From Deltaproteobacteria bacterium (lineage in GTDB: Bacteria; Desulfobacterota; Desulfobulbia; Desulfobulbales; SURF-16): DNA of 64,000 nucleotides. Below the pieces are notes generated by a model. That model saw only the letters and a program-made list of their open reading frames with translations. It was not told where the DNA came from and ran no database searches. Each line of letters begins with the position of its first letter. Positions within the stretch are counted from its first letter, which is position 1. The translations under genes were made by a program, and so were the position numbers. The stretch covers positions 15,833 through 79,832 of the forward strand of contig JAOZSN010000001.1 of assembly GCA_029939635.1 (NCBI GenBank), in the 5' to 3' direction. This document shows, piece by piece, positions 1 through 20,523 of the stretch.

Positions 1-539
1 GCAGAAGGATCAAGCTCCCGTAGGGTTCTTCTCATCATAAAAAAATACCCGGCAAACCCTGTTATAGCGACAAAGAGAACAAGGCCCAGAAAGGACTTTT
101 TCAAGCCACCCAGTACGCCACCTTCCCATAAAGGGGCAAACTGCAACTCCACAGTTCCCCAGAGCTTTTGCCCCTTCAGGATGGGAACCTGGACATGGGT
201 CAGAGAAGAACGACCATCCCCAGAACTTTGCCAACGGGACAGATGGTTGCCACTCACTGCCAATAACGTCCCAGCAGAACTGCGCAGGGCGGCAGAAAGG
301 ATAGCATTATCCCTCTCAACCAATGACTTCAAGGTCATCCTGATGGAAGCAAGATCATCATTAGTGGCTGCAGCGGAAAATTGCAGGGCAAGAGACTCAC
401 AGAGATCCTTACGGGCCTCAAAAGCCACCTCATCTCGATTAGGGGCAATACCAATAAAATCTGCCACCAGGAGAAGACTCACGGTTAAAGCCATAATACC
501 GAGACTGATACGTGCTGCCGGAGTTTTAAAAAACTTCAT
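1..539 (-). CDS. Membrane-anchored sensor/signalling protein, N-terminal part (partial, runs off left edge)
   Basis: Absent from the ORF track because no stop falls in the window. The ATG at 539-537 overlaps the TGA (538-536) of the giant gene, giving an ATGA junction. My translation starts MKFFKTPAARISLGIMALTVSLLLVADF. It shows an N-terminal TM, a ~150-aa extracytoplasmic segment, a second TM (LGLVLFVAITGFAGYFFMM) and then RRTLRELDPS. Open for 179 codons to position 3. Confidence 0.6.
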   Translation of the reverse strand, partial: MKFFKTPAARISLGIMALTVSLLLVADFIGIAPNRDEVAFEARKDLCESLALQFSAAATNDDLASIRMTLKSLVERDNAILSAALRSSAGTLLAVSGNHLSRWQSSGDGRSSLTHVQVPILKGQKLWGTVELQFAPLWEGGVLGGLKKSFLGLVLFVAITGFAGYFFMMRRTLRELDPS

Positions 540-3500
540 TTTTCTACCCTATTTTTATCAAACATCTGGTCCACATCATTATTATTCGCTGGTGGTGTGT
601 CATCCTTCTTTTTCTCTTTCTTCTTGGGGAGAATCAAAACAGAAATTGGATCAAAGCCCTTCCATAAAGGAACAGAGGCAAGAAAACTGGAAAAGAGAGA
701 ACCAGCCCTGAGCAGATAGCCCGCAGCCCCAGCGGCCAGGGAAGCAGAGACCCCTTTTGTTGCCAAGGCTGTAAATACATGGCCACGAGAACTCTCAGCA
801 AAATCTGAATCAAGCTCTTGCCGCAAAATTTCAATCTGGCCAGCTACCATGACCTGATCAGCATCAGACAAGGGTCTGAGTAACTCATCATCAAGACCAA
901 ATTGCTCATAGGCAACCTGGGTCGTCTCTTCACTAGCACTACTCAAATAACTACTCCCCACCCCTTGTGATGAAGAGGATTTTTTTGAGTCCTGGTCATA
1001 ATTAAGGGGCAAATACTCATCAAAGGTAAACGGCTGGCTGACAGATTCTTCCGGCTCCATATCATCATTGTTTTCTTGCCAGACCGAATCTCCAAATTGG
1101 GATTCCTGGCTGCGATCATTATCACTTACTTCCAGACCAACAATGTCGTCAGAATTTCCGTCCTCACTCACCTCAGGGGCATCAGGAAGATCAGCGCCAG
1201 GAGAGGTATCGTCACCACCATCTTCCGGCAGAGCCTCATTGAGGTCAGTGACGGCAATGGTAAAATCCATACTGGCCGTACTGCCATCAGCAGAGGTGGC
1301 CAGAGCAATGACAGTATGGCTCTGAGCATTTTCATAATCAAGGGCACCATTGACGGTAATAACCCCGCTGACACTATCAATAACAAACAACCCACCAGCA
1401 TCATCAAGCAAGGAGTAGGTGATCGTACTATTGCTACTATCACCATCAACGGCATGGGCCACCACGCCTACCACTGTACCAAGGGCACTATTTTCAGAAA
1501 CAGTGTTTGGACTGAGGTTACTATCACTAATTGCCGCAACATCAAATTCATCCTCATCAAGCAGATTAATGGTAAAACTCCGCGAACTTGTGCTGCTATC
1601 TGTGGAGGTGGCCTGGACAGTGATGCTGTGACTCGTAGCAGCTTCGCTGTCCAGCAGATGACCAGCTGCCACGGTGACTATGCCACTGTTTGCATCAATA
1701 ACAAAGCGGCCTCCGGCATCATTGCTCAAGCTATAGGTGATGCTATCTCCGCCATCACCATCAGTGGCATGGGCAGTGAGGCCAACACTGCTGCCAGCAC
1801 CACTATTTTCAAACACCGTTTCGCTGACCACAGCGTTGGTATCGACAATAGTAGTGACCGCAAACTCATTGACATCTGCAACTGAAACCGTAAAGGCTCT
1901 ACTATCGGTATTACCATCCTCATCCATGCCATGCAAAATGGCGTCATAGACATTATCGCCATTGCCATCAACGGCAGCCTCAAAATTTCTGGCAATCATA
2001 CTGACCACACCCGTACTTGCATCAACGCTGAACAGGCCGGCATCAGCACCGCTCAAGGTGTAGGTAACATTGCCTATGGGAGTATCACCACTCAAACTCG
2101 GCACGCTACTAGTAAAGATAACATTTTCGGCAATAATACTATCGGCAAGGGCATCGATAGTGAAATTCGCTATTTCAACAGCATCGGTCACCTCCACCGT
2201 AAAAGCCTCGCTATCACTGTTGCTATCGGCATCAGTGGCGATCAAGGTCACCTCATAGACATTATCACCATTGATATCTGCGGCTGCCTCATAATTTCGG
2301 CCAACCATACTGACCACACCCGTACCAGCATCAACAGTGAACAGACCGGCATCTACACCACCAAGGGTATAGATGATGTTGCCAATGGGAGCATCACCAC
2401 TTAAACTCGGCACGCTACTAGTAAAGCTGACATTTTCGGCAATAATACTATCGGCAAGGGCATCAATAGTGAAATTCGCTATTTCAACAGCATCGGTCAC
2501 CTCCACCGTAAAAGCCTCGCTATCACTGTTGCTATCGGCATCAGTGGCGATCAAGGTCACCTCATAGACATTATCACCATTGCTATCAGCAGCAGCCTCG
2601 TAATCTCTGCCAACCATACTGACCACACCGCTATTGGCATCAACGCTGAACTGAGCGGCATCACTACCAGCCAGGCTATAGCTGACTGTACCAATGGGCG
2701 CAGCACCACTTAAGTTCGGGGTAACACTGGTAAATCCGACATTCTCGCTGATAACAGTATTAGCAATGGCGTCGATATTAAAGGTGGCAGTTTCAACCAC
2801 ATCGCTGACGGTGACGGTAAAATCTTCACTATCCGTATTGCCATCAGCATCAGTGGCGACCAGAGTCACCTCATAGACATTATCACCATTATTATCTACA
2901 GCAGCCTCAAAGTTTCTGGCAACCATACTAACCACACCGGTACTGGTATTGACGCTGAACAGGCCCGCATCTGTGCCACCAAGACTATAGCTGATATTGC
3001 CAATGGGAGCAGCACCACTTAAGTTCGGGGTAACACTGGTAAATCCGACATTCTCATTGATAACGGTATTGCCAATGGCATCAATGCTGAAGTTAGCATC
3101 TTCAACCACATCGCTGACGGTGACGGTAAAGGCGGCTTGAGCAGTATTAGCATCAGCATCAGTGGCAACTAAGGTCACCTCATAGACATTATCACCATTG
3201 CTATCAGCAGCAGACTCATAATCTCTGCCAACCATACTCACCACACCGGTACTGGCATCAACGCTGAATAGGCCGGCATCACTACCGCTCAAGGTGTAGG
3301 TGATATTGCCAATAGGTGTGTCGCCATTCAGGTTTGGGGTAACACTGCTAAATACGACATTCTCATTGATAACGGTATTGCCAATGGTATCAATACCGAA
3401 GTTAACGACTTCAACCACGTCGCTGACGGTGGCGGTAAAGGCGGCATTAGCCGAATTAGCATCCTCGTCAATGGCGACCAGGGTCACCTCATAGACATTA

Positions 3501-6500
3501 TCGCCATTGCTATCAGCGGCAGTCTCATAATCCCTGGCAACCATACTAACCACACCAGTACTGCTATTAACGGTGAACAGGCCGGCATCTACACCTGCCA
3601 GGCTATAGGTCACGGTGCCAATGGGAGCAGCACCACTTAAATTCGGAGTGACACTGGTAAAAACGCTATTCTCAACTACCGTTGTATTGGCAATGGTATC
3701 AATGTTGAAGGTGGCGGCTTCAATCACATCACTCACAGTGACAGTAAAGGCTTCACTGGCGCTATTACCATCATCATCAGTGGCAACCAAGGTCACCTCA
3801 TAGACATTATCACCATTATTATCTACAGCAGCCTCATAATCCCTGGCAACCATACTGACCACACCAGTACTGGCATCAACGCTGAACAGGCCGACATCAG
3901 CACCTGACAGGCTATAGGTGACCGTACCAATGGGAGCAGCACCATTTAAGTTTGGTGTGACACTGCTAAAGTCCGAATTTTCATTGACCGTTGTATTGGC
4001 AATGGCATCAATGCCGAAGATGGCAGCTTCAACCACATCGCTGACAGTAACCGTGAATGATTCACTGGCAATATTCGCATCGGTATCAGTGGCAACCAGA
4101 GTCACCTCATAAACATTATCACCATTACTATCTGCAGCAGCCTCATAATCCCTGCTAACCATGCTGACCACACCTGTTCCAGCATCAACGCTGAACAGAG
4201 CAGCATCGCTACCAGCCAGACTATAGGTGACAGCACCAATGGGTGCAGCACCACTTAAAACCGGCGTAACACTGGTGAAAACACTATTCTCGTTGACCGT
4301 TATATCAGCAATGGTATTGATCGTAAAAAGCGCTGATTCAGCGACATTAGACACCGTAACGCTAAAGGCTTCACTGGCGCTATTACCATCATCATCAGTG
4401 GCAACCAAGGTCACCTCATAGACATTATCACCATTATTATCTACAGCAGCCTCAAAGTTTCTGGCAACCATACTGACCACACCGGTACTTGTATTGACGC
4501 TGAACAGGCCAGCATCTGTGCCGCCAAGACTATAGCTAACAGTGCCAATGGGAGCAGCACCACTTAAGTTCGGAGCGCCACTGGTAAAGGCAGCGTTTTC
4601 AGCTACCGTTGTATCGGCAATGGCATCAATGGTAAAGCTGGCCGTTTCCACCACATCGGTGACAGTAACGGTAAAGGCTGCACTGGCGCTGTTGCCATCA
4701 TCATCAGTGGCAACCAGGGTGACATCATAGATATTATCACCATTGCTATCAGCAGCAGCCTCGTAATCTCTGCCAACCATACTCACCACGCCACTACCAG
4801 TATCAACGCTGAACAGGCCAGCATCTGTGCCGACCAGGCTATAGATAATGGTGCCAATGGGAGTATCACCGCTCAAATTTGGCGTAACGCCAGTAAAGGC
4901 GCTATTTTCAGCCACTGTTGCATTGGCAATGGTATCAATGCTGAAGTTGACGTTTTCCACTCCATCGCTGATTGTGACGCTAAAGGCTTCACTATCCGTA
5001 TTGCCATCATCATCAGTAGCAACCAAGGTGACATCATAGATATTATCACCATTGCTATCAGCAGCAGCCTCGTAATCTCTGCCAACCATACTCACCACGC
5101 CGGTACTGACATCAACACTGAACAGTCCCGCATCTGTACCGGCCAGACTATAGGTAATGGTGCCAATAGGGGTATCACCACTCAGATTTGGCGTAACACT
5201 GGTAAAGACGCTATTTTCAACCAGCGTTGTATTGGCAATGGCATCAATGCTGAAGGTGGATGCTTCCACCATATCACTGACGGTGACGCTAAAATCTTCA
5301 CTATCCGTATTGCCATCATCATCAGTGGCAACCAGGGTAAGCTCATAGACATTATCGCCATTGCTATCTGCAGCAGCCTCGTAATCTCTGCCAACCATGC
5401 TCACCACACCTGTACCGGCATCAACGCTGAACAGGCCCGCATCCGTGCCGGCCAGACTATAGGTAATGGTGCCAATGGGGGTATCACCACTCAGACTAGG
5501 TGTAACGCCGGTAAAGGCACTATTTTCAACCACGGTTGTATCAGCAATGGCATCGATACTGAAGGTGGCTGTTTCCACCACATCGCTGACAGTGACGGTA
5601 AAATCTTCACTATCCGTATTGCCATCATCATCAGTGGCAACCAGAATCACCTCATAGACATTATCGCCATTGCTATCCACAGCAGCCTCATAATCTCTGC
5701 CAACCATGCTCACCACACCTGTACTGACATCAACGCTAAACAAACCAGCATCCGTGCCCGCCAGGCTATAGGTAATGGTGCCAATAGGGGCATCACCACT
5801 TAGATTTGGCGTTACACTTGTAAAGACACTATTCTCAACCACCGTTGCATTGCTAATGGCATCAATGCTGAAGTTAACATTTTCCACCACATCGGTAACA
5901 GTGACGACAATACTCTGATTTATGGTATGTGTACCGGCAGAAACAGCAACATCTACACTGTACATATTGTCTGTGCCTGCATCGGAGGGCATCTCAAAAT
6001 TTGGGGCTGTGATAAAACTTAGATTGCCGCTGTCGTCGATTTGAAAGAGATGGTCATCAGCGCCTGTTCCGGCGATGGCATAGCTCAAAGAGTCATTATC
6101 TGCATCTGTGGCAATAACCTGATGGACGGTGGTAGTATTCTCTGCGACACTGGCCGTGGCCGAACTGGAAATTACAGGAGGAGCATTATATTCAACACTA
6201 AGTTCTGGGCGAAACTCTTGACCTGCAACCTCTGAACTGGCAAAGGCCCAATAATCAGAACCAAAAAAGGGTGAATCTCCATCCTGATCCAGAAAGGCCC
6301 AGCCTTGGTTAGAGCCAGGGTCAACAGACCATTTCCGCAGAGAGCTTTCCAAACCATTGATGGTGATATAATCATCATCAATGATATCATTAACACCGTC
6401 ACCAACTGCATTGGCATCAGCATCACCTGTATCAAAACGGACGCCATTGACCATGCTATTCCAGGTCGTCGTAGACTCATCCCAGCCCACAAGCATCTCA

Positions 6501-7525
6501 TGCATGGTTATGGTGGTATCAGAACTGGTATTGTTGATCCATAGCTGCAGAGAGGCAGAGCTAATGGTGGAACCTACGGGTATCTGGCCTAGCCCATCAC
6601 CAAAAAGATTGTCAAAGCGGAGTAACCCTTCAAAGAAATCATCCGAAGAAAACATCCCTCCTTGTTCGTAGGTTACTTGTATATTATCGGCAGTGGTGCC
6701 GTTAGTGGTGTTGTTTCTGTCATCACTATCAAGAAATGTATCCTGTGTCCCACTATAGCCATTGGCATCCCCTTGTTGAAAGGTCGCGGTGAGTAAACGG
6801 GCCTGCCAACTCTGCTGCAGGCCGACGGAGACGGCCAACTGGGATTCAATATTGCCGGTCTGATACTCAAGCTGCCAATCGCCCGCCAGGCTCCCATGAC
6901 CGGTAATATCATCGGAGCCAGCCACATCAGCACCGGTGAGCATGGCGATGGAATCAAGCAGCTGCTGACCTTGCTGAGTGGCAGCAATATTACAGCCGTA
7001 GAAAAGGATGTCGGCCTCCTTGTTCAGACTATCGTTCCAATCGGTCAAGGTGGTGGCATTGGCATTAACTGATGCTGAATCAAGCCAACTATTACCAAGT
7101 TGTACCTGACCATCACTGCCATGGGATATAATATGAATACCATCAACATCTTGAAATTGTACTAAAACATCGCTTATCTGGCTTATGCCATCCTCATTGG
7201 CATTGAGAATAATCACCTCAACCTGGGCATCATCACCCAAAGTACGTACGACATCATCGATAAATTGCTGATAATCTGGGGTGCGGCTATCAATAAAGAC
7301 CAGCTCCAGGCGACTTTCTGCACTCTGTTCTGCTGCCGACTCACTACTCCCCAAGGCAGGGTTCAGCTCTACCTCCAGCACCCCACCATCTCCACCCTGT
7401 TCCACAGAGAGGGAAGAAGTGGCCAGCATGGCTACGCCATCAAGATCTGCTGAAAAAAGCAGTCGAGCCTCAAGCTCTTCATAGTATAGGGCATGGAGCT
7501 GCTTTGTGTGATATTTTCTAGCCAC
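536..7525 (-). CDS. Giant cadherin-repeat surface adhesin (DUF4347-type N-terminal domain, 16 cadherin-like modules, C-terminal hydrophobic anchor-like tail)
   Basis: 2329-aa ORF. The N-terminus MARKYHTKQLHALYYEELEARLLFSADLDG has no signal peptide. Residues ~75-225 (LVFIDS...GIHIISHGSDGQVQLG...ILFYGCN) look like the DUF4347 domain of giant adhesins. Sixteen modules carry the D-x-D/N-G-D-N and VxVxD cadherin-like signatures. An acidic linker follows, then the C-terminal hydrophobic stretch and a KKKEKKK tail. Confidence 0.9.
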   Translation of the reverse strand: MARKYHTKQLHALYYEELEARLLFSADLDGVAMLATSSLSVEQGGDGGVLEVELNPALGSSESAAEQSAESRLELVFIDSRTPDYQQFIDDVVRTLGDDAQVEVIILNANEDGISQISDVLVQFQDVDGIHIISHGSDGQVQLGNSWLDSASVNANATTLTDWNDSLNKEADILFYGCNIAATQQGQQLLDSIAMLTGADVAGSDDITGHGSLAGDWQLEYQTGNIESQLAVSVGLQQSWQARLLTATFQQGDANGYSGTQDTFLDSDDRNNTTNGTTADNIQVTYEQGGMFSSDDFFEGLLRFDNLFGDGLGQIPVGSTISSASLQLWINNTSSDTTITMHEMLVGWDESTTTWNSMVNGVRFDTGDADANAVGDGVNDIIDDDYITINGLESSLRKWSVDPGSNQGWAFLDQDGDSPFFGSDYWAFASSEVAGQEFRPELSVEYNAPPVISSSATASVAENTTTVHQVIATDADNDSLSYAIAGTGADDHLFQIDDSGNLSFITAPNFEMPSDAGTDNMYSVDVAVSAGTHTINQSIVVTVTDVVENVNFSIDAISNATVVENSVFTSVTPNLSGDAPIGTITYSLAGTDAGLFSVDVSTGVVSMVGRDYEAAVDSNGDNVYEVILVATDDDGNTDSEDFTVTVSDVVETATFSIDAIADTTVVENSAFTGVTPSLSGDTPIGTITYSLAGTDAGLFSVDAGTGVVSMVGRDYEAAADSNGDNVYELTLVATDDDGNTDSEDFSVTVSDMVEASTFSIDAIANTTLVENSVFTSVTPNLSGDTPIGTITYSLAGTDAGLFSVDVSTGVVSMVGRDYEAAADSNGDNIYDVTLVATDDDGNTDSEAFSVTISDGVENVNFSIDTIANATVAENSAFTGVTPNLSGDTPIGTIIYSLVGTDAGLFSVDTGSGVVSMVGRDYEAAADSNGDNIYDVTLVATDDDGNSASAAFTVTVTDVVETASFTIDAIADTTVAENAAFTSGAPNLSGAAPIGTVSYSLGGTDAGLFSVNTSTGVVSMVARNFEAAVDNNGDNVYEVTLVATDDDGNSASEAFSVTVSNVAESALFTINTIADITVNENSVFTSVTPVLSGAAPIGAVTYSLAGSDAALFSVDAGTGVVSMVSRDYEAAADSNGDNVYEVTLVATDTDANIASESFTVTVSDVVEAAIFGIDAIANTTVNENSDFSSVTPNLNGAAPIGTVTYSLSGADVGLFSVDASTGVVSMVARDYEAAVDNNGDNVYEVTLVATDDDGNSASEAFTVTVSDVIEAATFNIDTIANTTVVENSVFTSVTPNLSGAAPIGTVTYSLAGVDAGLFTVNSSTGVVSMVARDYETAADSNGDNVYEVTLVAIDEDANSANAAFTATVSDVVEVVNFGIDTIGNTVINENVVFSSVTPNLNGDTPIGNITYTLSGSDAGLFSVDASTGVVSMVGRDYESAADSNGDNVYEVTLVATDADANTAQAAFTVTVSDVVEDANFSIDAIGNTVINENVGFTSVTPNLSGAAPIGNISYSLGGTDAGLFSVNTSTGVVSMVARNFEAAVDNNGDNVYEVTLVATDADGNTDSEDFTVTVSDVVETATFNIDAIANTVISENVGFTSVTPNLSGAAPIGTVSYSLAGSDAAQFSVDANSGVVSMVGRDYEAAADSNGDNVYEVTLIATDADSNSDSEAFTVEVTDAVEIANFTIDALADSIIAENVSFTSSVPSLSGDAPIGNIIYTLGGVDAGLFTVDAGTGVVSMVGRNYEAAADINGDNVYEVTLIATDADSNSDSEAFTVEVTDAVEIANFTIDALADSIIAENVIFTSSVPSLSGDTPIGNVTYTLSGADAGLFSVDASTGVVSMIARNFEAAVDGNGDNVYDAILHGMDEDGNTDSRAFTVSVADVNEFAVTTIVDTNAVVSETVFENSGAGSSVGLTAHATDGDGGDSITYSLSNDAGGRFVIDANSGIVTVAAGHLLDSEAATSHSITVQATSTDSSTSSRSFTINLLDEDEFDVAAISDSNLSPNTVSENSALGTVVGVVAHAVDGDSSNSTITYSLLDDAGGLFVIDSVSGVITVNGALDYENAQSHTVIALATSADGSTASMDFTIAVTDLNEALPEDGGDDTSPGADLPDAPEVSEDGNSDDIVGLEVSDNDRSQESQFGDSVWQENNDDMEPEESVSQPFTFDEYLPLNYDQDSKKSSSSQGVGSSYLSSASEETTQVAYEQFGLDDELLRPLSDADQVMVAGQIEILRQELDSDFAESSRGHVFTALATKGVSASLAAGAAGYLLRAGSLFSSFLASVPLWKGFDPISVLILPKKKEKKKDDTPPANNNDVDQMFDKNRVEK
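1856..5872 (-). repeat. Coding tandem array: 13 copies of a 309-bp (103-aa) cadherin-like unit
   Basis: Each unit starts F(S/T/N/G)ID(A/T)I... and ends ...VTV(S/T)DVVE. The first unit begins at residue 552 (nt 5872) and 13 x 309 bp ends at 1856. The periodic 60-64-aa antisense shadow ORFs in the track (2070, 2373, 2694 ... 5466) reflect the same period. Confidence 0.9.
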
Positions 7526-7528: not shown

Positions 7529-8452
7529 TTAGTTCTCCAGGCTACTCAAATAGGTATCTGCAAAATTGACATCATCCTGGCTCTTACTAAAAACTGAGCC
7601 ATCCTGCTCTTTGTCTACTGCACCAGTCGCATCATCCAAGGGAAAACGGACTGTACATTTCAGCCCACCTGGAATGTGATAATCTGGGTTGGGCAGGGCC
7701 AGACGCACTCTGAAAGTTCCACTGGCTGAATCGATCACCCGCTCAACAATATCAACCGTGGCAATATACTCATTCTCCTGCTGTAATTCTGACTGAACTG
7801 CAACCTCCATCCCCTTTTCAATACGACCAAACATGGTGGCAGGCAGAACAACCTCTACCTTGAGAGGGTCAATACAGGCAATACGCAGCAATGGTTCCTC
7901 ATCCACAAATTCACCTTTGGAGACAAAGCGTTCCATCACCACCCCAGAGATGGGGCTGCTGATTCGACGCTGATTGAGCATGGCATTGGCCCGTTGCAGA
8001 TCAAGTTTGGCCAAGGTGCGATTCTCCTTGGCCTTTTGCAGACGATAGCGGGCAATGGCTACCTCTGTTTCAGCTTCATCTTTTTTCTGAGTGGAGATGG
8101 CCTTGCTGATAAACAGGTCATCAAGTCGATCATAGGCCCGCTCGGCAAAGGCCAGTTTTTCCTGCTGCAGCTTGATCTCCCCCTCAATCTTGGTCTGGGC
8201 CCCAGCCCTGGCCACCGTTGCCCTTTCAACCGAGGAATCGAGCAGGACCAACACATCTCCAGCCTTAACCTCATCACTCTTTTCAACCTTAATAGAGCGA
8301 ATCACCCCACCCATGGGGGTGCCGACATTAACCATCTCACTGGGTTCAATAAGACCGTCAAACAGTGGAGATTCAGCCTGCACCGTGGCACTCAGCCCCA
8401 GGGCACAGACAAGGATCATACAAAAAACTATTTTTTTGCCATTATTCATCAT
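7529..8452 (-). CDS. HlyD/membrane-fusion-protein family periplasmic adaptor
   Basis: N-terminal signal/anchor (MMNNGKKIVFCMILVCALGLSATVQA). Lipoyl-like motif (GGVIRSIKVEKSDEVKAGDVLVLLD), coiled-coil hairpin, and the return half of the lipoyl motif (ISSPISGVVMERFVSKGEFV). Its stop lies 3 nt before the start of the giant gene. Confidence 0.85.
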   Translation of the reverse strand: MMNNGKKIVFCMILVCALGLSATVQAESPLFDGLIEPSEMVNVGTPMGGVIRSIKVEKSDEVKAGDVLVLLDSSVERATVARAGAQTKIEGEIKLQQEKLAFAERAYDRLDDLFISKAISTQKKDEAETEVAIARYRLQKAKENRTLAKLDLQRANAMLNQRRISSPISGVVMERFVSKGEFVDEEPLLRIACIDPLKVEVVLPATMFGRIEKGMEVAVQSELQQENEYIATVDIVERVIDSASGTFRVRLALPNPDYHIPGGLKCTVRFPLDDATGAVDKEQDGSVFSKSQDDVNFADTYLSSLEN

Positions 8453-8528
8453 TAAAAAACCTCTCTTATTCTGTAATAGTTCACCAGGACGACTAAACTT
8501 AACGAAATATAAATCTGTAAAAGTTTAC

Positions 8529-10541
8529 CTATTCTAGGCTACCGCTAAAGGCCAACCTACGCCCCAGCTGCTTGTCAAGCTGGAGCAGATTGCGGCGCAG
8601 TCGTTTATGATGCTGCTGGGTTTTAAATTGTGCACCTCGCAAGGCAAGATGGCTTATTTTTTGGATTAATGGATATTTTCTTACGAGCAAAAGAGCAAGA
8701 ACGTCAAGGGACATCCGCCCCTTTTGCTGCTGCAATAATTCATCATTGAGGGACAAGATACACTCATAACTGCCGGGATCTCCCTGGCGTCCACAGCGAC
8801 CAAATAGTTGCCGATCAATACGCAGGGCCTCATTTTGTTCAGTGGCAATAACATGCAGACCACCAGCCGCTGCCACCCCGGCACCTAAAGGAATATCAGT
8901 TCCCCGTCCAGCCATATTGGTGGCCACGGTAATCTGTCCTGGCTGACCAGCTAAAGCGATAATCTCTGCCTCGTGGGCATCCTGCCTGGCATTAAGAACC
9001 TGATGCTTGATGCCAGCCAGGGTAAGCAATGCACTTACATGCTCGGAATCAGCCAAAGACCTGGTGCCAATGAGGACAGGACGACCAGCACTGCTGATGG
9101 CCACTACTTGTTTAATAACGGCCTGCCATTTGCTGGTTCGATCCGCCAAGACATGGACACCCTTATTTAGGCGACAACAGGGGCGATGGGTGGCTACCCG
9201 TTGTACCTGCAGATCATACACCGACCATAACTCACCACTCACCTCATTCACCGTGCCGCTCATACCAGCCAGACGTAAATATCTCCGAAAAAAACGTTGA
9301 TAGGTCAGGCGAGCAAGTGTTTGTCGCTGGCTACTGATGGTGCATTTTTCCTTAATCTCAATCATCTGATGCAGCCCGCGCTGCCAGGAGCGATCTGCCA
9401 TGGGGCGACCGGTATTCTCGTCAATAATGACCACCTTTCCCTCAGTAAGCAGATAATGACGATCACGATGATAGAGCTCACAGGCCACCAAGGCTTGACA
9501 GGCAAGTTCCTGCCGCCGTCTCTGCCCAGCCCAGACACCACCGGCCTCAGCACTTATCTCTGCCAGGCGCTGACTGCCCTTGTCACTCAGCGCAACACTA
9601 CGCCCCTGCATATCTATGGTATAATCAAGACCAACCTCAAGCTGACTGGCAAAGAACATGGCCGTACGATAGAGCTTGTTTTCATCCTCAGTGGCAATTT
9701 CTTTAGAAAGCAGCAAGGGCGTCCGTGCCTCATCAATGAGCACACTGTCAGCCTCATCAATAATGGCAAAACAAAGCCCCCTGAGCAGGGGCTTTTGCTT
9801 AGAGTCATCACTCAACACAGCCAATTTACGGCGCAGATGACCCTGCTCATTATCCAGCACCATCCGATCACGTAGATAATCAAAGGCCACCTGCTTGTTG
9901 GTGCAATAGGTAATATCACAGTCATAGGCAGCACGACAGGCATCACTATCCATGGCTGCGGTAACCGTCCCCACCGTGAGGCCCAAGGCCTGGTAAAGAG
10001 GGGCCATGGTTTCAGCATCTCGACAGACCAGATATTCATTCACTGTAATGACATGGACAGGAATCCCGGCCAGGGCTGCAGTAGCAGCAGCCAGAGTGGC
10101 GGTGAGGGTCTTGCCTTCTCCGGTATCCAGCTCAGCCACCCGGCCCTGGATCATAATCCAGCCTCCCATGAGTTGGCTATCATAATGCCGCATACCTAAG
10201 GTGCGCTGGGCCATTTCCCTGATAAGAGCAAAAGCCTGGATAATCAATGCACGGTCAAGTCCCTGCTGACGGAGCTGTTGACTGACAGCAGCAAGCTGCT
10301 CCAAAATATCGCTTTCAGCTAAACCAATAAGTTCTTTGCCCTGCATGTTGATGGCTGCCACCACCTCAGCACAATGGTTATAACGAGAATTCAATGTCCG
10401 ATTAAACAAACCCTGTAGTCCATGGCCACAGCTGTCCAGCCAGCCCACATCCTGCCCCTTTTTCTCAGGATAGGCACCCCTGAGTAGTCCTGGACGCAGG
10501 CAATTGCCTATTTTTTGTATTTTCAACAATTCATCAAACAT
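8529..10541 (-). CDS. SecA-like ATPase paralogue, C-terminally truncated (motor domains plus PPXD-like insert only)
   Basis: Collinear with SecA: MRHYDSQLMGG, Walker A TGEGKTLTA, VTVNEYLVCRDAE, ITYCTNKQVAFDYLRD, Walker B IIDEADSVLIDEARTPL, IIDENTGRPMADRSWQRGLHQMIEIKE, TYQRFFRRY, ATNMAGRGTDI, GGLHVIATEQNEALRIDRQLFGRCGRQGDPG. It ends ~90 aa after that last motif at 670 aa. E. coli SecA continues for roughly 300 more residues. Confidence 0.85.
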   Translation of the reverse strand: MFDELLKIQKIGNCLRPGLLRGAYPEKKGQDVGWLDSCGHGLQGLFNRTLNSRYNHCAEVVAAINMQGKELIGLAESDILEQLAAVSQQLRQQGLDRALIIQAFALIREMAQRTLGMRHYDSQLMGGWIMIQGRVAELDTGEGKTLTATLAAATAALAGIPVHVITVNEYLVCRDAETMAPLYQALGLTVGTVTAAMDSDACRAAYDCDITYCTNKQVAFDYLRDRMVLDNEQGHLRRKLAVLSDDSKQKPLLRGLCFAIIDEADSVLIDEARTPLLLSKEIATEDENKLYRTAMFFASQLEVGLDYTIDMQGRSVALSDKGSQRLAEISAEAGGVWAGQRRRQELACQALVACELYHRDRHYLLTEGKVVIIDENTGRPMADRSWQRGLHQMIEIKEKCTISSQRQTLARLTYQRFFRRYLRLAGMSGTVNEVSGELWSVYDLQVQRVATHRPCCRLNKGVHVLADRTSKWQAVIKQVVAISSAGRPVLIGTRSLADSEHVSALLTLAGIKHQVLNARQDAHEAEIIALAGQPGQITVATNMAGRGTDIPLGAGVAAAGGLHVIATEQNEALRIDRQLFGRCGRQGDPGSYECILSLNDELLQQQKGRMSLDVLALLLVRKYPLIQKISHLALRGAQFKTQQHHKRLRRNLLQLDKQLGRRLAFSGSLE

Positions 10542-12678
10542 TAAATTGCCTCAAGAAAAGTTGTCGAAGAGAGCGATACCACTGCTGGCCAAGGGGAATT
10601 TTAGTATGATCAAAGCGGACATAGACCCGGCCACCAATTTTCATATCCTGTAACTCAGGGGGTAAAGCAAGTTCAAGCTGGAAGACCTTAGTCAAAGTAG
10701 TAAGGCCTTGGGGATCAGTCGGATCAACCGGAATGACACCACCCCCCTTGACCCCAAGGGTGGCAACAGGCAGACTATTGGCTGCTGCAGGCACCACTCT
10801 GGCAATGTTGGTTGTCATGACATGATTAAGACGTTCAACCGACCTGATCTGCACAGCCTCGGTCTGCTCCTGTACCAAGGAAATATCCTTATGACTCACA
10901 ACCAAGCGAACCATGGATGGTACATCCCCCACAACATAGCCCAGCAGAGCACCTTGGTTGACAAAACGACCTGGCAGACTTTGATCCTCTGGCAAGATGA
11001 ATATACCGTTGGCCTGGCTCCTGATAATGAGCTTAGCCAGGCGCTCCTGGTGTTGGTGCAAATCAGCCTTAAGAGTGGTAATCTCATCCAGCAGAATAGT
11101 GCGACGTACTATGGCCCGCAGAGGTTCAGCGGTATATTGGGCCTCTAGCTCCTGTAGGGTAGCGCTCAAAACTTCAGTCTCTGTAGTCAGAAAAGGATCA
11201 TCACACACCAACAACACATCACCCTTTTCCACCCTGCTACCAGCCGAAGTCATAACTTTGGCGACAACACCATCCACACCAACACGAACCTGCGACTGCT
11301 CTGGAACCCAAACCACCCCTTCTGCTCTGGTGTGAAAAGGAGCTGGCACCACCCCAAACAGCATGGTCAGTAATCCACTACTCAGCAAAGCAACCACACA
11401 CACCCTGCTATTCTTTTGTTGGCGCCCTGAACTATTGAAAAAGCGAGACATCGCCAATCCAGCAGGTTTCAATACCTGACTAAATGCTCCCCAGGCAGCC
11501 AGCAGAACACCGACAAAGAAAAACTTAGCGCCGACAAACAACAATAAGCCAGTAATAACCAGTAGCCGATAGATAAAGGCACAAATACCATACACCAACA
11601 GCCAAAACTCTTCGCCAGATGCAGTCACCGGCGATCTGGCCTCACTGATACCAAAAAGATAGCGCTGGACAAGATAGCCAAGATAGCGGTTGGAACGCTG
11701 AGCCAAATTAGGAATTTCTAGGCCATCGGCCAGAATAAAATAGCCGTCAAAACGTAAGAGAGGGTTACCGTTAAAGAGCAAGGTAGAAACCCCACCAATA
11801 AGCATGACATTATAGGCAATGGCACTGACCAAACCCGACTCCACGCTGAGCCAAACCCCTAAGGCCAAAGCAGCTATACTCACTTCAACAACCATGCCCA
11901 TGGCAGCCACAGCCATGCGGTGTCTCTTCTCTGAAAAAGCAGCAGAGGCAGAGGCCTCTACATAGGGAATGGGTGTAAATGCCAGGAGCATAATACCCAT
12001 TTCATGAACCTCTCCTCCCCACACCTTCACAGCAAAGGCGTGGCCGAACTCATGGAAAAGTTTAACCACAGGATAGACCAACCAGAGGATAAGGAGATTT
12101 GGGGGGGCAAGAACTCGATCAGCGATATTTTCACTGAGTTCAGGCCAATGAGTTAACGCCCCAACCAGTCCACTGCCCACCACGGCAAAAAGAAATAGGG
12201 CCATGGGCCAGCTAAAGAGAGGCTTGACAAGAAAGAGCCATTTTTGCAAAAAACGATCAGGGTCAACCAGGGGAAAACGCATGGCAAACGGGTTGGCAAT
12301 GGAATGTCGCCTATCATTTCCAGCTGCTTTTTTCTGGCGGCTGAACAGATCCAAGGTATCGGCACTCACATCGCAACGCAGCAAATCTGTACTGTGGAGC
12401 TGCCCCAGCAAGGTAATAACCTCATCCTGACTAGGGGCATCATCACCTAAAAAGTCCAGACCCGCCTGCCATATTTCAGCCAAACTCTTTGTGCCATCCA
12501 TCAAGCCGATGAGATAATAGGCCGCCATATTAAAACGCTGATGACGCCCAGAGGCAGTATCTCGCAACACATACCAGGGCTGCTGCCGATAATAATGGCG
12601 AGAGACCTGAACATGGCGACGCAGGCGCGGCTCAAGGGCTGCGATACGGTACCAGTATGTGCTATAGAGTGAGGACAT
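10534..12678 (-). CDS. Fusion protein: polytopic M50 (site-2 protease) metalloprotease domain plus C-terminal HlyD-like adaptor domain
   Basis: HEFGHA (HExxH) inside a hydrophobic segment, plus the downstream NGNPLLRFDGY motif (M50 NxxPxxxLDG-type). Several TM segments. The C-terminal half has a lipoyl-like motif (GVVAKVMTSAGSRVEKGDVLLVCDD), a coiled coil and a beta-barrel-like region. It overlaps the SecA-like start by 8 nt (ATGTTTGA). Confidence 0.8.
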   Translation of the reverse strand: MSSLYSTYWYRIAALEPRLRRHVQVSRHYYRQQPWYVLRDTASGRHQRFNMAAYYLIGLMDGTKSLAEIWQAGLDFLGDDAPSQDEVITLLGQLHSTDLLRCDVSADTLDLFSRQKKAAGNDRRHSIANPFAMRFPLVDPDRFLQKWLFLVKPLFSWPMALFLFAVVGSGLVGALTHWPELSENIADRVLAPPNLLILWLVYPVVKLFHEFGHAFAVKVWGGEVHEMGIMLLAFTPIPYVEASASAAFSEKRHRMAVAAMGMVVEVSIAALALGVWLSVESGLVSAIAYNVMLIGGVSTLLFNGNPLLRFDGYFILADGLEIPNLAQRSNRYLGYLVQRYLFGISEARSPVTASGEEFWLLVYGICAFIYRLLVITGLLLFVGAKFFFVGVLLAAWGAFSQVLKPAGLAMSRFFNSSGRQQKNSRVCVVALLSSGLLTMLFGVVPAPFHTRAEGVVWVPEQSQVRVGVDGVVAKVMTSAGSRVEKGDVLLVCDDPFLTTETEVLSATLQELEAQYTAEPLRAIVRRTILLDEITTLKADLHQHQERLAKLIIRSQANGIFILPEDQSLPGRFVNQGALLGYVVGDVPSMVRLVVSHKDISLVQEQTEAVQIRSVERLNHVMTTNIARVVPAAANSLPVATLGVKGGGVIPVDPTDPQGLTTLTKVFQLELALPPELQDMKIGGRVYVRFDHTKIPLGQQWYRSLRQLFLRQFNV

Positions 12679-12687
12679 AATAAAGTA

Positions 12688-12708
12688 GTCAGTTGTCAGT
12701 TGTCAGTT
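12688..12708. repeat. Three perfect tandem copies of heptamer GTCAGTT (degenerate copies continue to ~12725) in an intra-operon spacer
   Basis: Read directly: gtcagtt gtcagtt gtcagtt ggtg gcagttg gttgtt. It lies between the stop of the GAF::HlyD gene (12740) and the ATG of the M50::HlyD gene (12678). Confidence 0.7.
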
Positions 12709-12739
12709 GGTGGCAGTTGGTTGTTACTGATAACTGTAG

Positions 12740-15069: not shown

Positions 15070-16407
15070 ATGAATATTGCACCATATATATTTTGCTTTT
15101 TCATAGTGATTTTGCCGCCTAAAGCGTATAGCGCTGAGCAGTCGTCCCCAGCCCACATGAACCTGGCTGACTGCATTGATCTGGCCTTGGCTCATAGCCC
15201 TGATCTCGGCATGGCCCAAGCAACATTTGCTCAGAATAAGGCCTTGCTTGACAGTGCCAAAAAGAATTTATTGCCCTCATTCTCAGCCCATTACTCCTAT
15301 AAATACCAACCAAACTCCATCTATTCCCCTACAGATGAGTACGGCTATGGCCTCACAGCAGAACAACCTATCTATCAAGGTAAAGCCATTGTCACCAGCA
15401 TCAAACAGGCGGAAATATCTCTCAACTCTGCCCAGAAAGGAACTGACCGTATCATCAACGAGCTCATTTTCCAGGTCTACACCAACTATTTCAAAGTACT
15501 CAGGGCAGTCAAGGTGGCCACGGAAGCTCAAAATTCCGTCAACCGACTTAAAAGCCATAGGAGTGACGCCAAGGCCTTTTTTGATGCTGGGATTATCCCT
15601 CGCAATGATTTCCTACAAAGTGATGTGGAACTTGCCCAGGGAGAGCAAGACTTTGTTGATGCCCAGATAGAAGCCTTTATTGCTCGGGCAGAGTTGAACA
15701 TTTTATTGGGCCGCGACACAGACATGGCTCTGCATCTTGAAGATAATTATGCCAAAGAGCAACGAGAAAACAACTGGGATGACATCCTCCACTCAGCCCT
15801 GACCAATCGTCCTGAAATTATGCAGGCCAAACTAGGGGCTGAAATGGCCAAGAAGGAAGTGACCATTAAAAAAGCGCCTTTTCTGCCTAAAATCTCCCTA
15901 TCAGCCTCCTATGACAAACGAGGAGACAGAGCCGACGGGGCGCGATCGGATGAACTAGGTTGGCCAGCAGAAGAGAAAACCGTCAGCGCGGTGGCCACAT
16001 GGAAATTATGGACATGGCAAAAAAATAAAAACGAGATTACAGCGGCAAAAAAAGATGTCCGCCGCGCAAAAAAGGCAATCGCCCAGACCATTGATCGTGT
16101 CAGCCTGGAAACCAGAATTGCCTTTCAACGCCTGCAGCAGACAGAAAAGAGAATCAAGGTATCCGAACGAGCCATTACCCACGCAGAAGAAAATTATCGT
16201 ATCACCCAGGCCCGCTACCAATCACAAATTGCCACGTCAACCCAGGTGCTGGATGCCCAGGCGCTGCTCACCCAGGCAAAAACAAACTACTATGACTCTT
16301 TTTATGGCCATAAAGTTGCTCTGGCCGCAGTGGAGAGAGCCTCAGGCCGTTTGGGACAAAAATATTCTCACACAACCAATGAATCAGCAGAACAAGGACA
16401 ACCATGA
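15070..16407 (+). CDS. TolC-family outer-membrane efflux/secretion duct protein
   Basis: Signal peptide (MNIAPYIFCFFIVILPPKAYSA). Typical OEP start LADCIDLALAHSPDL. Two repeated OEP halves with coiled-coil regions. 445 aa. Confidence 0.9.
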   Translation: MNIAPYIFCFFIVILPPKAYSAEQSSPAHMNLADCIDLALAHSPDLGMAQATFAQNKALLDSAKKNLLPSFSAHYSYKYQPNSIYSPTDEYGYGLTAEQPIYQGKAIVTSIKQAEISLNSAQKGTDRIINELIFQVYTNYFKVLRAVKVATEAQNSVNRLKSHRSDAKAFFDAGIIPRNDFLQSDVELAQGEQDFVDAQIEAFIARAELNILLGRDTDMALHLEDNYAKEQRENNWDDILHSALTNRPEIMQAKLGAEMAKKEVTIKKAPFLPKISLSASYDKRGDRADGARSDELGWPAEEKTVSAVATWKLWTWQKNKNEITAAKKDVRRAKKAIAQTIDRVSLETRIAFQRLQQTEKRIKVSERAITHAEENYRITQARYQSQIATSTQVLDAQALLTQAKTNYYDSFYGHKVALAAVERASGRLGQKYSHTTNESAEQGQP

Positions 16408-18691: not shown

Positions 18692-18693
18692 AG

Positions 18694-20483: not shown

Positions 20484-20523
20484 GATTTTTTCTTTATATC
20501 CTGCCCATCCTGTTAATCCTGTC

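What the first reader, a model, noticed from the sequence alone, without database searches (positions are those of the whole stretch)
539..754. Adhesin C-terminus is a hydrophobic segment plus Lys-rich tail, not a T1SS/RTX signal
The last 72 aa read GVSASLAAGAAGYLLRAGSLFSSFLASVPLWKGFDPISVLILPKKKEKKKDDTPPANNNDVDQMFDKNRVEK. This is a glycine/alanine-rich hydrophobic stretch followed by a basic cluster, preceded by a long acidic linker. The layout recalls sorting/anchor signals (hydrophobic helix plus basic tail) that dedicated proteases remove. An intramembrane M50 protease domain is encoded three genes upstream. The C-terminal helix could therefore be the recognition or cleavage element of the system.
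Basis: partly seen in the sequence, partly recalled or inferred. Interest (0 to 1): 0.6.

Follow-up and report, generated by a model that had tools for sequence, protein, structure and literature searches.

The report
Conserved C-terminal docking tail of adhesin
The last ~110 residues of this giant adhesin form a conserved, unannotated C-terminal module found next to an unusual secretion gene set (truncated SecA, M50 protease fused to HlyD, TolC) and a c-di-GMP enzyme, so it is probably that machine's anchoring or sorting signal.

Summary
The minus-strand ORF 536..7525 (2329 aa) ends with exactly the quoted 72 aa. It has no RTX repeats, and the window holds no T1SS ABC transporter.

The tail is not a generic hydrophobic stretch. 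It is the core of a ~110-aa module:
- an acidic helix;
- a 34-residue helix with a Gly/Ser stripe and a near-invariant Arg;
- a PxW[KR]GFDP turn;
- a Lys cluster;
- an ExΦF motif.

An exhaustive search found 846 cluster representatives, the listed hits all at the extreme C-terminus. No Pfam or NCBIfam model covers it. Complete members start with a LEPR-XLL-type motif.

In all 16 loci with readable upstream DNA, the gene sits by GAF-HlyD, PqqD-like/M50-HlyD and small HlyD genes; a truncated SecA lies between them in all loci where that position is readable except L060. In at least 75% a membrane PAS-GGDEF(-EAL) gene follows directly.

However, the helix falls below the transmembrane hydropathy threshold, and cleavage by M50 is untested. 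Known S2P substrate orientation and the protease's RiPP-leader-peptidase relatives make the N-terminal motif an equally good M50 substrate.

Best reading: a machine-docked retention or sorting module. No paper describing it was found.

The parts
539..754 (-).
   Evidence: Translation and family conservation profile
539..865 (-). Whole conserved C-terminal module (residues 2221-2329)
   Evidence: phmmer hits cover query positions ~15-120 of the 125-aa query; alignments; AF2 model
791..865 (-). Acidic amphipathic helix (residues 2221-2245; family consensus LRQELDESF)
   Evidence: AF2 helix with pLDDT ~87-90; conserved D2239, E2237, L2238
677..778 (-). Single 34-residue helix (residues 2250-2283). 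It has a conserved small/polar stripe (G2258, S2262, G2266, S2269, R2273, S2276, S2280, S2283) opposite a variable hydrophobic face
   Evidence: AF2 continuous helix, pLDDT 88-93 over residues 2261-2283. G2266 99%, R2273 95%, G2275 94%. Conservation and hydrophobic moments are ~160 degrees apart
647..670 (-). PLWKGFDP turn (residues 2286-2293), the most conserved motif of the module
   Evidence: P2286 97%, W2288 95%, D2292 99%, P2293 100%
629..646 (-). Short hydrophobic stretch ISVLIL (residues 2294-2299)
   Evidence: Conserved [LIV]x[IV][LF]; short AF2 helix at 2293-2297
605..625 (-). Basic cluster KKKEKKK (residues 2301-2307)
   Evidence: Read directly from the DNA; K/R dominate these columns in 155 sequences
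557..571 (-). DQMFD, the family's ExΦF[D] motif (residues 2319-2323), 6 residues from the end
   Evidence: E/D 89%, F2322 89%
866..1234 (-). Acidic low-complexity linker between the last cadherin domain and the module (residues ~2098-2220)
   Evidence: 41 D/E against 7 K/R in residues 2091-2257; the last cadherin hit ends at residue 2092
536..7525 (-). Adhesin gene (2329 aa, GTG start): LEPR-XLL-like N-terminus, DUF4347, ~14 cadherin repeats, linker, tail
7445..7486 (-). N-terminal YYEELEARLLFSAD (residues 14-27), a LEPR-XLL-type motif and the second constant element of tail-bearing proteins
   Evidence: NF012209 match of 13.8 bits, below the 17-bit cut-off (homologue P0012: 19 bits). The motif is present in 31 aligned N-termini
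1..539 (-). Start of the downstream gene. Its ATG at 539..537 overlaps the adhesin stop (ATGA). It encodes the two-TM periplasmic sensor part of a PAS-GGDEF-EAL protein and is cut by the window edge
   Evidence: Full-length homologues are PAS+GGDEF+EAL with intact GGEEF and EALxR motifs
7529..8452 (-). Small HlyD/RND-type periplasmic adaptor (307 aa, one N-terminal TM)
8529..10541 (-). Truncated SecA paralogue (670 aa): NBD1, PPXD, NBD2 and the start of the scaffold helix. It lacks the HWD, the two-helix finger and the C-terminal tail
   Evidence: aligns to B. subtilis SecA residues 17-607
10534..12678 (-). PqqD/RRE-like domain + M50 intramembrane metalloprotease + HlyD adaptor fusion (714 aa)
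   Evidence: HEFGH and NGNPLLRFDGY, conserved in 48 orthologues. daptide_HExxH 1e-43. PF05402/PF02163 on homologues. AF2 and Foldseek
12740..14500 (-). GAF + TM + HlyD adaptor (586 aa)
15070..16407 (+). Divergently transcribed TolC-family outer-membrane channel

Best explanation
The tail is a dedicated C-terminal docking, retention or sorting module for the export machine encoded beside it.

Shown:
- It is a conserved ~110-aa unit found only at the very C-terminus of LEPR-XLL-headed giant surface proteins.
- These proteins are encoded next to GAF-HlyD, RRE-M50-HlyD, (usually) a truncated SecA and a small HlyD. TolC is usually nearby.
- A membrane PAS-GGDEF(-EAL) gene follows directly in at least 75% of cases.

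Inferred mechanism:
- The N-terminal motif starts export.
- When the C-terminus arrives, the 34-residue helix with its Gly/Ser stripe stays in the inner-membrane part of the machine, oriented N-out/C-in.
- It packs through its conserved small/polar face and Arg against partner helices, either the M50 domain or the adaptor TM helices.
- The PxW[KR]GFDP turn sits at the membrane interface.
- The Lys cluster and the ExΦF motif remain in the cytoplasm, where a cytoplasmic domain (RRE-like, GAF or SecA-like) can read them.
- The ~120-200-aa acidic linker threads the HlyD-TolC tunnel, so the adhesin is displayed but tethered.
- Release or turnover would then be controlled by proteolysis and c-di-GMP signalling.

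Proteolysis by the M50 domain is possible but unproven. I put it at roughly 0.25.
For: Extreme C-terminal position and depth of conservation: 846 representatives, with near-invariant G2266, R2273, G2275, P2286, W2288, D2292 and P2293.

No existing model covers it.

AF2 gives one long helix of high confidence followed by a turn and a disordered basic tail.

The conserved face is small/polar and lies opposite the variable hydrophobic face. Hydropathy is below the TM threshold. Together these fit a helix buried against protein rather than lipid.

Synteny: 16 of 16 tail-bearing loci with readable upstream DNA carry cassette genes. In 52 of 69 a GGDEF/EAL gene follows directly, often with overlapping stop and start codons.

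L060 keeps the tail, M50-HlyD, GAF-HlyD and HlyD but has no SecA-like gene. This ties the tail to the adaptor and M50 proteins more than to the ATPase.

The two constant elements (N-terminal motif and C-terminal tail) flank variable middles, and DUF4347 is dispensable in L008. This is the layout of known two-signal surface proteins.

The C-terminal linker is about 120 residues or more. The N-terminal spacer is only ~45 residues in this protein. Only the C-terminal end could span a tunnel I estimate at ~270 Å (from memory of TolC and adaptor dimensions).
Against: - No experiment or topology predictor was available, and orientation rests on the positive-inside rule alone.
- Hessa-scale insertion energy is unfavourable (median +3.8), so the helix may not be membrane-embedded at all.
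- Cassettes in Nitrospira, alphaproteobacteria, Colwellia and Fibrobacter have neighbouring giants without this tail. The machine therefore does not need it universally.
- One locus (L066) and 17 of 69 metagenome loci show no detectable GGDEF gene downstream.
- A truncated SecA motor gives no proof of N-to-C direction.
Confidence: 0.42

Rival explanations
1. The tail is a C-terminal secretion signal read first, as in T1SS. It would act as a mirror-image signal peptide: a hydrophobic helix followed by a basic cluster that stays in the cytoplasm. It engages the SecA-like ATPase or the M50-HlyD inner-membrane unit and starts C-terminus-first export through HlyD/TolC. The N-terminal DUF4347 region would be the last part out, or a retention plug. 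The M50 domain might then clip the signal.
For: - The MFP and TolC architecture is that of T1SS-type tripartite conduits.
- T1SS substrates carry C-terminal signals (established knowledge).
- Cassette-adjacent giants in other lineages also have lineage-specific conserved C-termini: WLxDFL..NPN and LLLxAxSRPxWQL..KRRFRLWER. This hints that C-termini matter to this machine.
- The SecA-like protein keeps the preprotein cross-linking domain.
Against: - SecA-type motors and RRE or leader-type recognition are known to act from N-terminal signals (established knowledge).
- All complete members also carry a conserved N-terminal motif.
- T1SS signals are poorly conserved and not hydrophobic, whereas this one is the opposite.
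- The tail co-occurs with a c-di-GMP enzyme, not with all cassettes.
Confidence: 0.23
2. The M50 domain processes the N-terminal LEPR-XLL-type leader, not the tail. It would recognise the leader through its PqqD/RRE-like domain, as RiPP leader peptidases and C39-domain exporters do. The tail would be an uncleaved anchor, or a signalling handle that reports or controls adhesin state through the adjacent PAS-GGDEF-EAL and GAF proteins.
For: - The best curated relatives of the protease are daptide and YydH-type leader-removing intramembrane metalloproteases.
- Homologues carry PF05402 (PqqD), and sources name them 'PqqD family peptide modification chaperone'.
- AF2 shows three strands plus three helices at residues 23-96.
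- RRE-region residues are invariant across all cassette types, including those whose substrates lack the tail.
- A LEPR-type motif also heads cassette-adjacent proteins without the tail (L052, L037).
- Known S2P substrates are N-in (established knowledge).
- The tail tracks with the GGDEF-EAL gene.
Against: - The N-termini of the tail-less upstream giants could not be recovered, so the universality of the leader is unproven.
- The window protein's motif scores below the NF012209 cut-off.
- The most conserved tail residues lie at the presumed cytoplasmic end of the helix. That is where S2P active sites sit, so tail cleavage remains geometrically possible.
Confidence: 0.3
3. The tail is an ordinary Sec/YidC-inserted transmembrane anchor, or a chance hydrophobic stretch, with no link to the cassette.
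For: It is a helix followed by lysines, as in many tail anchors.
Against: - Motif-level conservation over hundreds of clusters.
- Sub-threshold hydropathy.
- No N-terminal Sec signal peptide.
- Strict synteny with the cassette.
Confidence: 0.03

Closest known systems
GlyGly-CTERM / rhombosortase, and more widely the tripartite C-terminal sorting signals (LPXTG/sortase, PEP-CTERM/exosortase, PGF-CTERM/archaeosortase)
   Same: A family-specific signature, a helix and a basic cluster at the C-terminus of surface proteins, co-inherited with a dedicated membrane enzyme. In the rhombosortase case that enzyme is an intramembrane protease. The protein carries two signals, N-terminal for export and C-terminal for sorting.
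   Different: - No NCBIfam sorting-signal model matches.
- There is no Sec signal peptide.
- The helix is below TM hydropathy, and its conserved motifs lie at the inner end, not the outer end.
- 22-26 further residues with an ExΦF motif follow the basic cluster.
- The partner is an M50-HlyD fusion inside a TolC-type cassette, not a sortase, exosortase or rhomboid.
LapA / LapG / LapD / LapBCE (c-di-GMP-controlled retention and proteolytic release of a giant adhesin held in a T1SS channel)
   Same: A giant repeat adhesin, an MFP + TolC conduit, an adjacent inner-membrane GGDEF-EAL protein with a periplasmic domain between two TM helices, and a protease gene in the locus. The adhesin is plausibly tethered through the tunnel.
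   Different: - The retention element would be C-terminal and at the inner membrane, not an N-terminal plug in the outer-membrane channel.
- There is no ABC transporter, no RTX repeats and no LapG-type cysteine protease in the window.
- The GGDEF and EAL motifs are intact here, so the protein is probably an enzyme rather than a pure receptor.
Type 1 secretion C-terminal signals of RTX proteins
   Same: C-terminal position and partnership with HlyD-family adaptors and TolC.
   Different: - No RTX nonapeptides.
- No HlyB-type ABC/C39 exporter.
- The sequence is strongly conserved, helical and hydrophobic, followed by a Lys cluster.
Site-2 protease (M50) substrates such as RseA / RseP, and RiPP leader peptidases of the M50 type (daptide protease, YydH)
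   Same: A catalytically intact HExxH...NxxPxxxxDG intramembrane metalloprotease next to a candidate helical substrate. The candidate has helix-weakening Gly/Ser/Pro near the cytoplasmic end.
   Different: - The inferred orientation of the tail (N-out/C-in) is opposite to known S2P substrates.
- The RiPP-type relatives cut N-terminal leaders.
- The protease is fused to an RRE-like domain and to a periplasmic adaptor. I know of no described example of this fusion, and the paper searches found none.

Membership tests
T1SS / RTX C-terminal secretion signal | Glycine-rich RTX nonapeptide repeats (GGxGxDxUx) upstream of the signal | tested here: not met
   0 regex matches in the 2329-aa protein and no HemolysinCabind hit
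T1SS / RTX C-terminal secretion signal | Cognate HlyB-type ABC transporter encoded with the substrate | tested here: not met
   The cassette has a SecA-like ATPase instead. The only ABC genes in the window are an ABC-2 type exporter at 17906-20621. The same holds in 58 related loci
T1SS / RTX C-terminal secretion signal | HlyD-family adaptor and TolC-family channel partners | tested here: met
   Three HlyD-type proteins and one OEP/TolC. The adaptor fold of the fusion protein matches MacA, MexA and AcrA
T1SS / RTX C-terminal secretion signal | Signal poorly conserved in sequence, unstructured, not hydrophobic | tested here: not met
   Seven near-invariant residues and a 34-residue predicted helix
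Tripartite C-terminal sorting signals (LPXTG, PEP-CTERM, GlyGly-CTERM, PGF-CTERM ...) | Match to a curated sorting-signal model | tested here: not met
   No NCBIfam hit for the 125-aa tail even at E<=10, and none in Pfam
Tripartite C-terminal sorting signals (LPXTG, PEP-CTERM, GlyGly-CTERM, PGF-CTERM ...) | Signature motif, then a true TM helix, then a basic cluster ending the protein | tested here: inconclusive
   A helix and a basic cluster are present. However, only 19% of members reach KD >= 1.6, and 22-26 further residues follow the cluster
Tripartite C-terminal sorting signals (LPXTG, PEP-CTERM, GlyGly-CTERM, PGF-CTERM ...) | N-terminal Sec signal peptide | tested here: not met
   The N-terminus is MARKYHTKQLHALYYEELEARLLFSAD, with no hydrophobic core. 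The KD scan finds no TM or signal-like segment in the protein
Tripartite C-terminal sorting signals (LPXTG, PEP-CTERM, GlyGly-CTERM, PGF-CTERM ...) | Cognate sortase, exosortase or rhombosortase | tested here: not met
   None found among the window ORFs scanned. The co-inherited membrane enzyme is M50-HlyD. A rhomboid gene lies next to one related cassette only (L060)
S2P / M50 protease substrate | Catalytically competent M50 protease co-encoded | tested here: met
   HExxH is present in 48 of 48 aligned orthologues and NxNPLxRxDxY in 47 of 48, the exception being an R-to-K substitution
S2P / M50 protease substrate | Type II (N-in, C-out) orientation of the cleaved helix | not testable with these tools
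   The positive-inside rule suggests the opposite (N-out/C-in), but no topology predictor or experiment was available
S2P / M50 protease substrate | Helix-destabilising residues in the substrate helix | tested here: met
   Conserved R-[AG]-G-S (G2275 94%) and P2286 97%. AF2 nevertheless models a continuous helix through 2283
S2P / M50 protease substrate | Demonstrated cleavage | not testable with these tools
   Needs mass spectrometry of the mature protein in wild type and in an active-site mutant
Lap-type c-di-GMP-controlled adhesin retention | LapG-type periplasmic cysteine protease and an N-terminal retention module with a di-alanine site | tested here: not met
   No such protease family among the scanned window ORFs. 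The N-terminus is LEPR-XLL-like plus DUF4347
Lap-type c-di-GMP-controlled adhesin retention | Adjacent inner-membrane GGDEF-EAL protein with a periplasmic domain | tested here: met
   The downstream gene's start overlaps the adhesin stop. Homologues have 2 TM + PAS + GGDEF + EAL. The gene is present in 52 of 69 loci
LEPR-XLL domain proteins (NCBIfam NF012209) | N-terminal LEPRxLL motif scoring above the model cut-off (17 bits) | tested here: inconclusive
   The window protein (LEARLLFSA) scores 13.8 bits, below the cut-off. Its homologue P0012 scores 19 bits. The motif is conserved in 31 aligned N-termini

The most novel reading that the evidence does not exclude
The tail is the C-terminal sorting and anchoring signal of an undescribed tripartite secretion pathway that uses neither SecYEG nor an ABC exporter. 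Giant LEPR-XLL-headed adhesins would be recognised by an RRE-M50-HlyD fusion and driven by a truncated SecA paralogue through HlyD/TolC. They would then be held at the inner membrane by this tail, under c-di-GMP control, until the intramembrane protease releases them.
Probability: 0.3. Interest if true: 0.9.

Novelty: new variant of a known kind. Interest (0 to 1): 0.72.

Why it matters
Giant adhesins decide whether bacteria stick to surfaces, and the known routes to the surface are T1SS with RTX signals, T5SS or Sec plus sortase-type sorting. This module gives a searchable C-terminal signature with hundreds of clusters and no database model. It marks the substrates of a widespread, uncharacterised gene set in which a SecA paralogue and an intramembrane protease-adaptor fusion replace the ABC exporter. 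It also ties these substrates to c-di-GMP enzymes.

If the tail is the retention or sorting element, several things follow:
- It makes the pathway directly testable, by tail swaps, termini mass spectrometry and active-site mutants.
- It would add a new logic for regulated adhesin display.
- It would allow substrates to be predicted in Desulfobulbales, gammaproteobacteria and many metagenomic lineages.

Tried and rejected
- **Literature.** Six searches (DUF4347; LEPR-XLL; SecA+HlyD+M50+TolC; SecA-like+TolC; intramembrane/HlyD/PqqD/metalloprotease) found no description of the tail or the cassette. The first search was too broad to be useful.
- **Word-indexed homology search.** The search with the tail found only 5 fragments. 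The exhaustive search was needed.
- **Alignment-based locus search.** The search for related loci with alignment A1 failed for lack of a conserved 7-10-column stretch. A hand-made degenerate DNA pattern replaced it.
- **Recovering N-termini of the tail-less upstream giants.** I searched with the L031 protein to ask whether the LEPR motif is universal. The hits were RTX-repeat proteins, apparently N-terminally incomplete, with no usable N-termini. This remains unresolved.
- **A chimeric AF2 run (leader + M50 domain + tail).** I prepared it but did not submit it. The tool reports no inter-domain confidence and would probably reject non-window sequences.
- **Foldseek with the M50-HlyD model.** It returned only adaptor proteins, so the S2P fold of the membrane part rests on motifs and family hits, not on a structural match. 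phmmer against PDB found nothing.
- **A two-helix hairpin at 'LLRAGS'.** I considered it and rejected it, because AF2 models a single continuous helix.
- **Linker-length proxy.** The computed proxy was too crude to use. Linker lengths were read from the sequences instead.
- **Sigma-54 promoter scan.** Matches were no more frequent than chance.


Full report
**1. Observation.**
The minus-strand ORF 536..7525 encodes a 2329-aa protein. Its layout is as follows:
- an N-terminus MARKYHTKQLHALYYEELEARLLFSAD;
- DUF4347 at residues 75-243;
- about 14 cadherin repeats;
- an acidic linker (41 D/E against 7 K/R in residues 2091-2257);

KKKEKKK is encoded at 605..625. The stop codon (538..536) overlaps the ATG (539..537) of the next gene. 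There are no RTX nonapeptides and no HemolysinCabind hit. The plus-strand ORF 181..711 that overlaps the region is antisense to two conserved genes, and I regard it as spurious.

**2. The tail is a conserved domain, not a generic anchor.**
An exhaustive phmmer search with the last 125 aa against 1.84 billion representatives gave 846 hits at E<=1e-3. All 150 listed hits lie at the extreme C-terminus of proteins of 73 to 5817 aa. No Pfam or NCBIfam model matches.

A 155-sequence alignment shows these elements:
- an acidic helix, with consensus LRQELDESF;
- a moderately hydrophobic stretch with G2266 (99%), Y/W2270, L2272, R2273 (95%), G2275 (94%), S2276 and L2277;
- then P2286 (97%), W2288 (95%), F2291, D2292 (99%) and P2293 (100%);
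- a K/R cluster at 2301-2307;
- an E-x-[LMI]-F-[D] motif 5-8 residues from the end (F2322 89%).

A degenerate DNA pattern for LLRxG(N27)PxW[KR]xFDP found 95 metagenome stretches. All 80 loci fetched encode a tail-HMM-positive ORF, and in 79 of 81 such ORFs the match ends 0-29 aa before the stop.

**3. Physical character.**
With a 19-aa Kyte-Doolittle window and a 1.6 threshold, I find six TM helices in M50-HlyD, one true TM helix in GAF-HlyD (residues 321-339), one in the small HlyD and two in the downstream protein. I find none in the adhesin.
- Across the tail family the median maximum is 1.47, and only 19% reach 1.6.
- The summed Hessa 2005 scale is positive, with a median of +3.8.

AF2 with a 76-sequence alignment gave a mean pLDDT of 70. 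It models:
- a helix at 2221-2245;
- one continuous helix at 2250-2283, with pLDDT 88-93 over 2261-2283;
- a turn at PLWKGFDP;
- a short helix at 2293-2297;
- a disordered tail.

Over residues 2262-2285 the hydrophobic moment points to 167 degrees and the conservation moment to 6 degrees. The conserved face is small and polar (G2258, S2262, A2265, G2266, S2269, R2273, S2276, S2280, S2283). The hydrophobic face is variable. This is what one expects of a helix that packs against partner helices rather than facing lipid all round. That last statement is inference.

**4. Genomic context.**
On the same strand upstream lie four genes:
- a small HlyD adaptor (7529..8452);
- a SecA paralogue of 670 aa (8529..10541) that aligns to B. 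subtilis SecA residues 17-607, and so lacks the HWD, the two-helix finger and the C-terminal tail;
- a 714-aa M50-HlyD fusion (10534..12678) with HEFGH and NGNPLLRFDGY;
- a GAF-TM-HlyD protein (12740..14500).

TolC and a sigma-54 response regulator are transcribed divergently. There is no T1SS ABC/C39 exporter and no LapG-type protease among the window ORFs scanned.

The order GAF-HlyD, M50-HlyD, SecA-like, HlyD recurs in most of the 58 species-level loci found with the SecA-like protein. These span Desulfobulbales, gamma-, beta- and alphaproteobacteria, Nitrospirota and Fibrobacter. HExxH is present in all 48 aligned M50-HlyD orthologues, and NxNPLxRxDxY in 47 of them, the exception being one R-to-K substitution.

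Homologues of the fusion protein number more than 7200. Many carry precomputed PF05402 (PqqD) and PF02163 (Peptidase_M50) hits, and sources name them 'PqqD family peptide modification chaperone' or 'putative peptide zinc metalloprotease'. The AF2 model (pLDDT 75) shows:
- three strands plus three helices at residues 23-96, like an RRE;
- a helical membrane bundle;
- a β-hairpin at 224-242 after HEFGH;
- a C-terminal adaptor that matches MacA, MexA and AcrA.

**5. Link between tail and cassette.**
Every tail-bearing protein whose upstream DNA could be read lies beside cassette genes. These are the window, L004, L008, L023, L059-L065, L088, L091, L106, L131 and L138, giving 16 of 16.

All N-terminally complete members start with a basic stretch followed by ΦΦ[FY]EELEPRΦL[FLY]SAD at about residues 15-27. 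This is the NCBIfam LEPR-XLL motif. The window protein scores 13.8 bits, below the 17-bit cut-off, and P0012 scores 19 bits. The middle of the protein is variable, and DUF4347 is absent from the 907-aa L008 protein. The two termini are therefore the constant parts.

The gene after the tail is a two-TM PAS-GGDEF(-EAL) protein with intact GGEEF and EALxR motifs, often overlapping the adhesin stop. It is present in 52 of 69 metagenome loci with at least 600 nt downstream, and in all ten of the better-resolved loci. It is often followed by an HDOD gene.

L060 has the tail, GAF-HlyD, M50-HlyD and HlyD but no SecA-like gene within 21 kb.

Cassettes of Nitrospira, alphaproteobacteria, Colwellia/Glaciecola and Fibrobacter have giants upstream that lack the tail and carry other conserved C-termini.

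**6. Mechanism.**
Shown:
- a conserved C-terminal module;
- its predicted helix and basic cluster;
- its co-inheritance with the adaptor and M50 genes and with a c-di-GMP enzyme.

Inferred: the module is the part of the substrate that stays engaged with the inner-membrane end of the machine.
- The helix would be docked N-out/C-in through its small/polar stripe and Arg.
- PxW[KR]GFDP would sit at the interface.
- The Lys cluster and ExΦF motif would lie in the cytoplasm.
- The acidic linker of about 120 residues or more would thread the adaptor-TolC tunnel. The N-terminal spacer of this protein, ~45 residues, would be too short for that.

The layout parallels two-signal surface proteins, in which an N-terminal export signal is paired with a C-terminal sorting signal. 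I give this reading 0.42.

**7. Does M50 cut the tail?**
For:
- the protease is intact and co-inherited;
- the most conserved tail residues, including helix-weakening G/S/P, lie at the presumed cytoplasmic end, where S2P active sites sit (established knowledge).

Against:
- known S2P substrates are N-in;
- the closest curated relatives (daptide_HExxH 1e-43, YydH/LiaK) remove N-terminal leaders;
- the RRE-like domain is conserved in all cassette types, including those without tail-bearing substrates;
- a LEPR-type motif also heads tail-less neighbours (L052, L037).

I therefore rate tail cleavage at about 0.25. The alternative, in which M50 processes the N-terminal leader and the tail is an uncleaved anchor or regulatory handle, is a strong rival (0.30). 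A T1SS-like reading, with a C-first secretion signal, gets 0.23. A generic anchor gets 0.03.

**8. Comparison and novelty.**
The nearest concepts are these:
- GlyGly-CTERM/rhombosortase and the other tripartite sorting signals;
- the Lap system;
- RTX T1SS signals;
- S2P substrates.

Membership fails or is inconclusive for each; see the membership table. No paper in the searchable library describes the tail or the cassette, though much subscription literature is not covered.

I file the tail as a new variant of the known kind 'C-terminal sorting or retention signal'. The surrounding machine, with a SecA paralogue and an RRE-M50-HlyD fusion in place of an ABC exporter, may be more novel than that.

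**9. Verdict.**
- Observation: confirmed.
- Interpretation: partly supported.
- Interest: 0.72.

Noticed in passing
window 7529-14500 (-), 15070-16407 (+): The cassette itself is unusual. It has three HlyD-family adaptors (one fused to GAF domains, one fused to an M50 protease), a truncated SecA paralogue and TolC, but no ABC, RND or MFS pump. The order is conserved in most of the 58 species-level loci across several phyla.
   Followed up: partly
window 10534-12678 (-), protein residues ~20-100: The M50-HlyD fusion starts with a PqqD/RRE-like peptide-binding domain. Homologues carry PF05402, and AF2 shows three strands plus three helices. Residues W9, Y10, R11, R31, R48, W70, P82 and L94 are near-invariant in 48 orthologues.
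   Followed up: partly
window 536-539 and 1-539 (-): The adhesin stop and the start of the next gene overlap (ATGA). The next gene is the N-terminal two-TM sensor part of a PAS-GGDEF-EAL protein cut by the window edge. The same stop/start overlap, or a gap of a few bases, recurs in many related loci, which suggests translational coupling.
   Followed up: partly
L016, L031, L035, L053 (C-termini of upstream giants); P0275, P0281, P0283: Tail-less cassettes of Nitrospira, alphaproteobacteria and Desulfomicrobium have RTX-repeat giants upstream. These giants end in a different shared motif, W-x-x-[DE]-F-[LV]...NPN..[LI].[VI]. It may be another C-terminal signal for the same kind of machine.
   Followed up: partly
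L040, L051, L055, L056 (upstream giants, last ~40 aa): Colwellia and Glaciecola-type cassette neighbours end with a coiled-coil region, then LLLxAxSRPxWQL and a basic KRRFRLWER end. This has a similar layout to the tail (short hydrophobic stretch, P-x-W, basic end) but is not detected by the tail HMM.
   Followed up: no
L060 (whole 21-kb contig): A tail-bearing adhesin sits with GAF-HlyD, M50-HlyD and a larger HlyD (507 aa) but with no SecA-like gene. A rhomboid gene lies divergently next to the cassette, and GGDEF and EAL are split into two genes.
   Followed up: partly
L086:902-1288 and 1990-2934 (-): Two separate tail-bearing ORFs lie on one short contig, so some organisms may have several substrates in tandem.
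   Followed up: no
window ~2700-5700 (-): The cadherin repeats of the adhesin form a near-perfect tandem array at the DNA level. Spurious antisense ORFs recur every 309 nt (for example 4848, 5157, 5466).
   Followed up: no
window 181-711 (+): A 176-aa ATG ORF lies antisense to the tail and to the downstream gene. It is most likely a shadow ORF, because the minus-strand frames are the conserved ones.
   Followed up: partly
window 16404-17807 (+) and 14897-14911 (+): A sigma-54-dependent response regulator follows TolC. A one-mismatch -24/-12-like site (TGGCGCATTTTTTGC) lies in the divergent intergenic region, but such matches are no more frequent in the window than in shuffles.
   Followed up: partly
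window 50787-51974 (+): A strong match to the Pfam family Volactin (PF25216, E=1e-84). It is unrelated to the finding.
   Followed up: no
window 17906-20621 (-): An ABC-2 type exporter (two ABC2_membrane_6 genes plus an ATPase) lies just beyond the regulator. It is not a T1SS-type ABC transporter.
   Followed up: no
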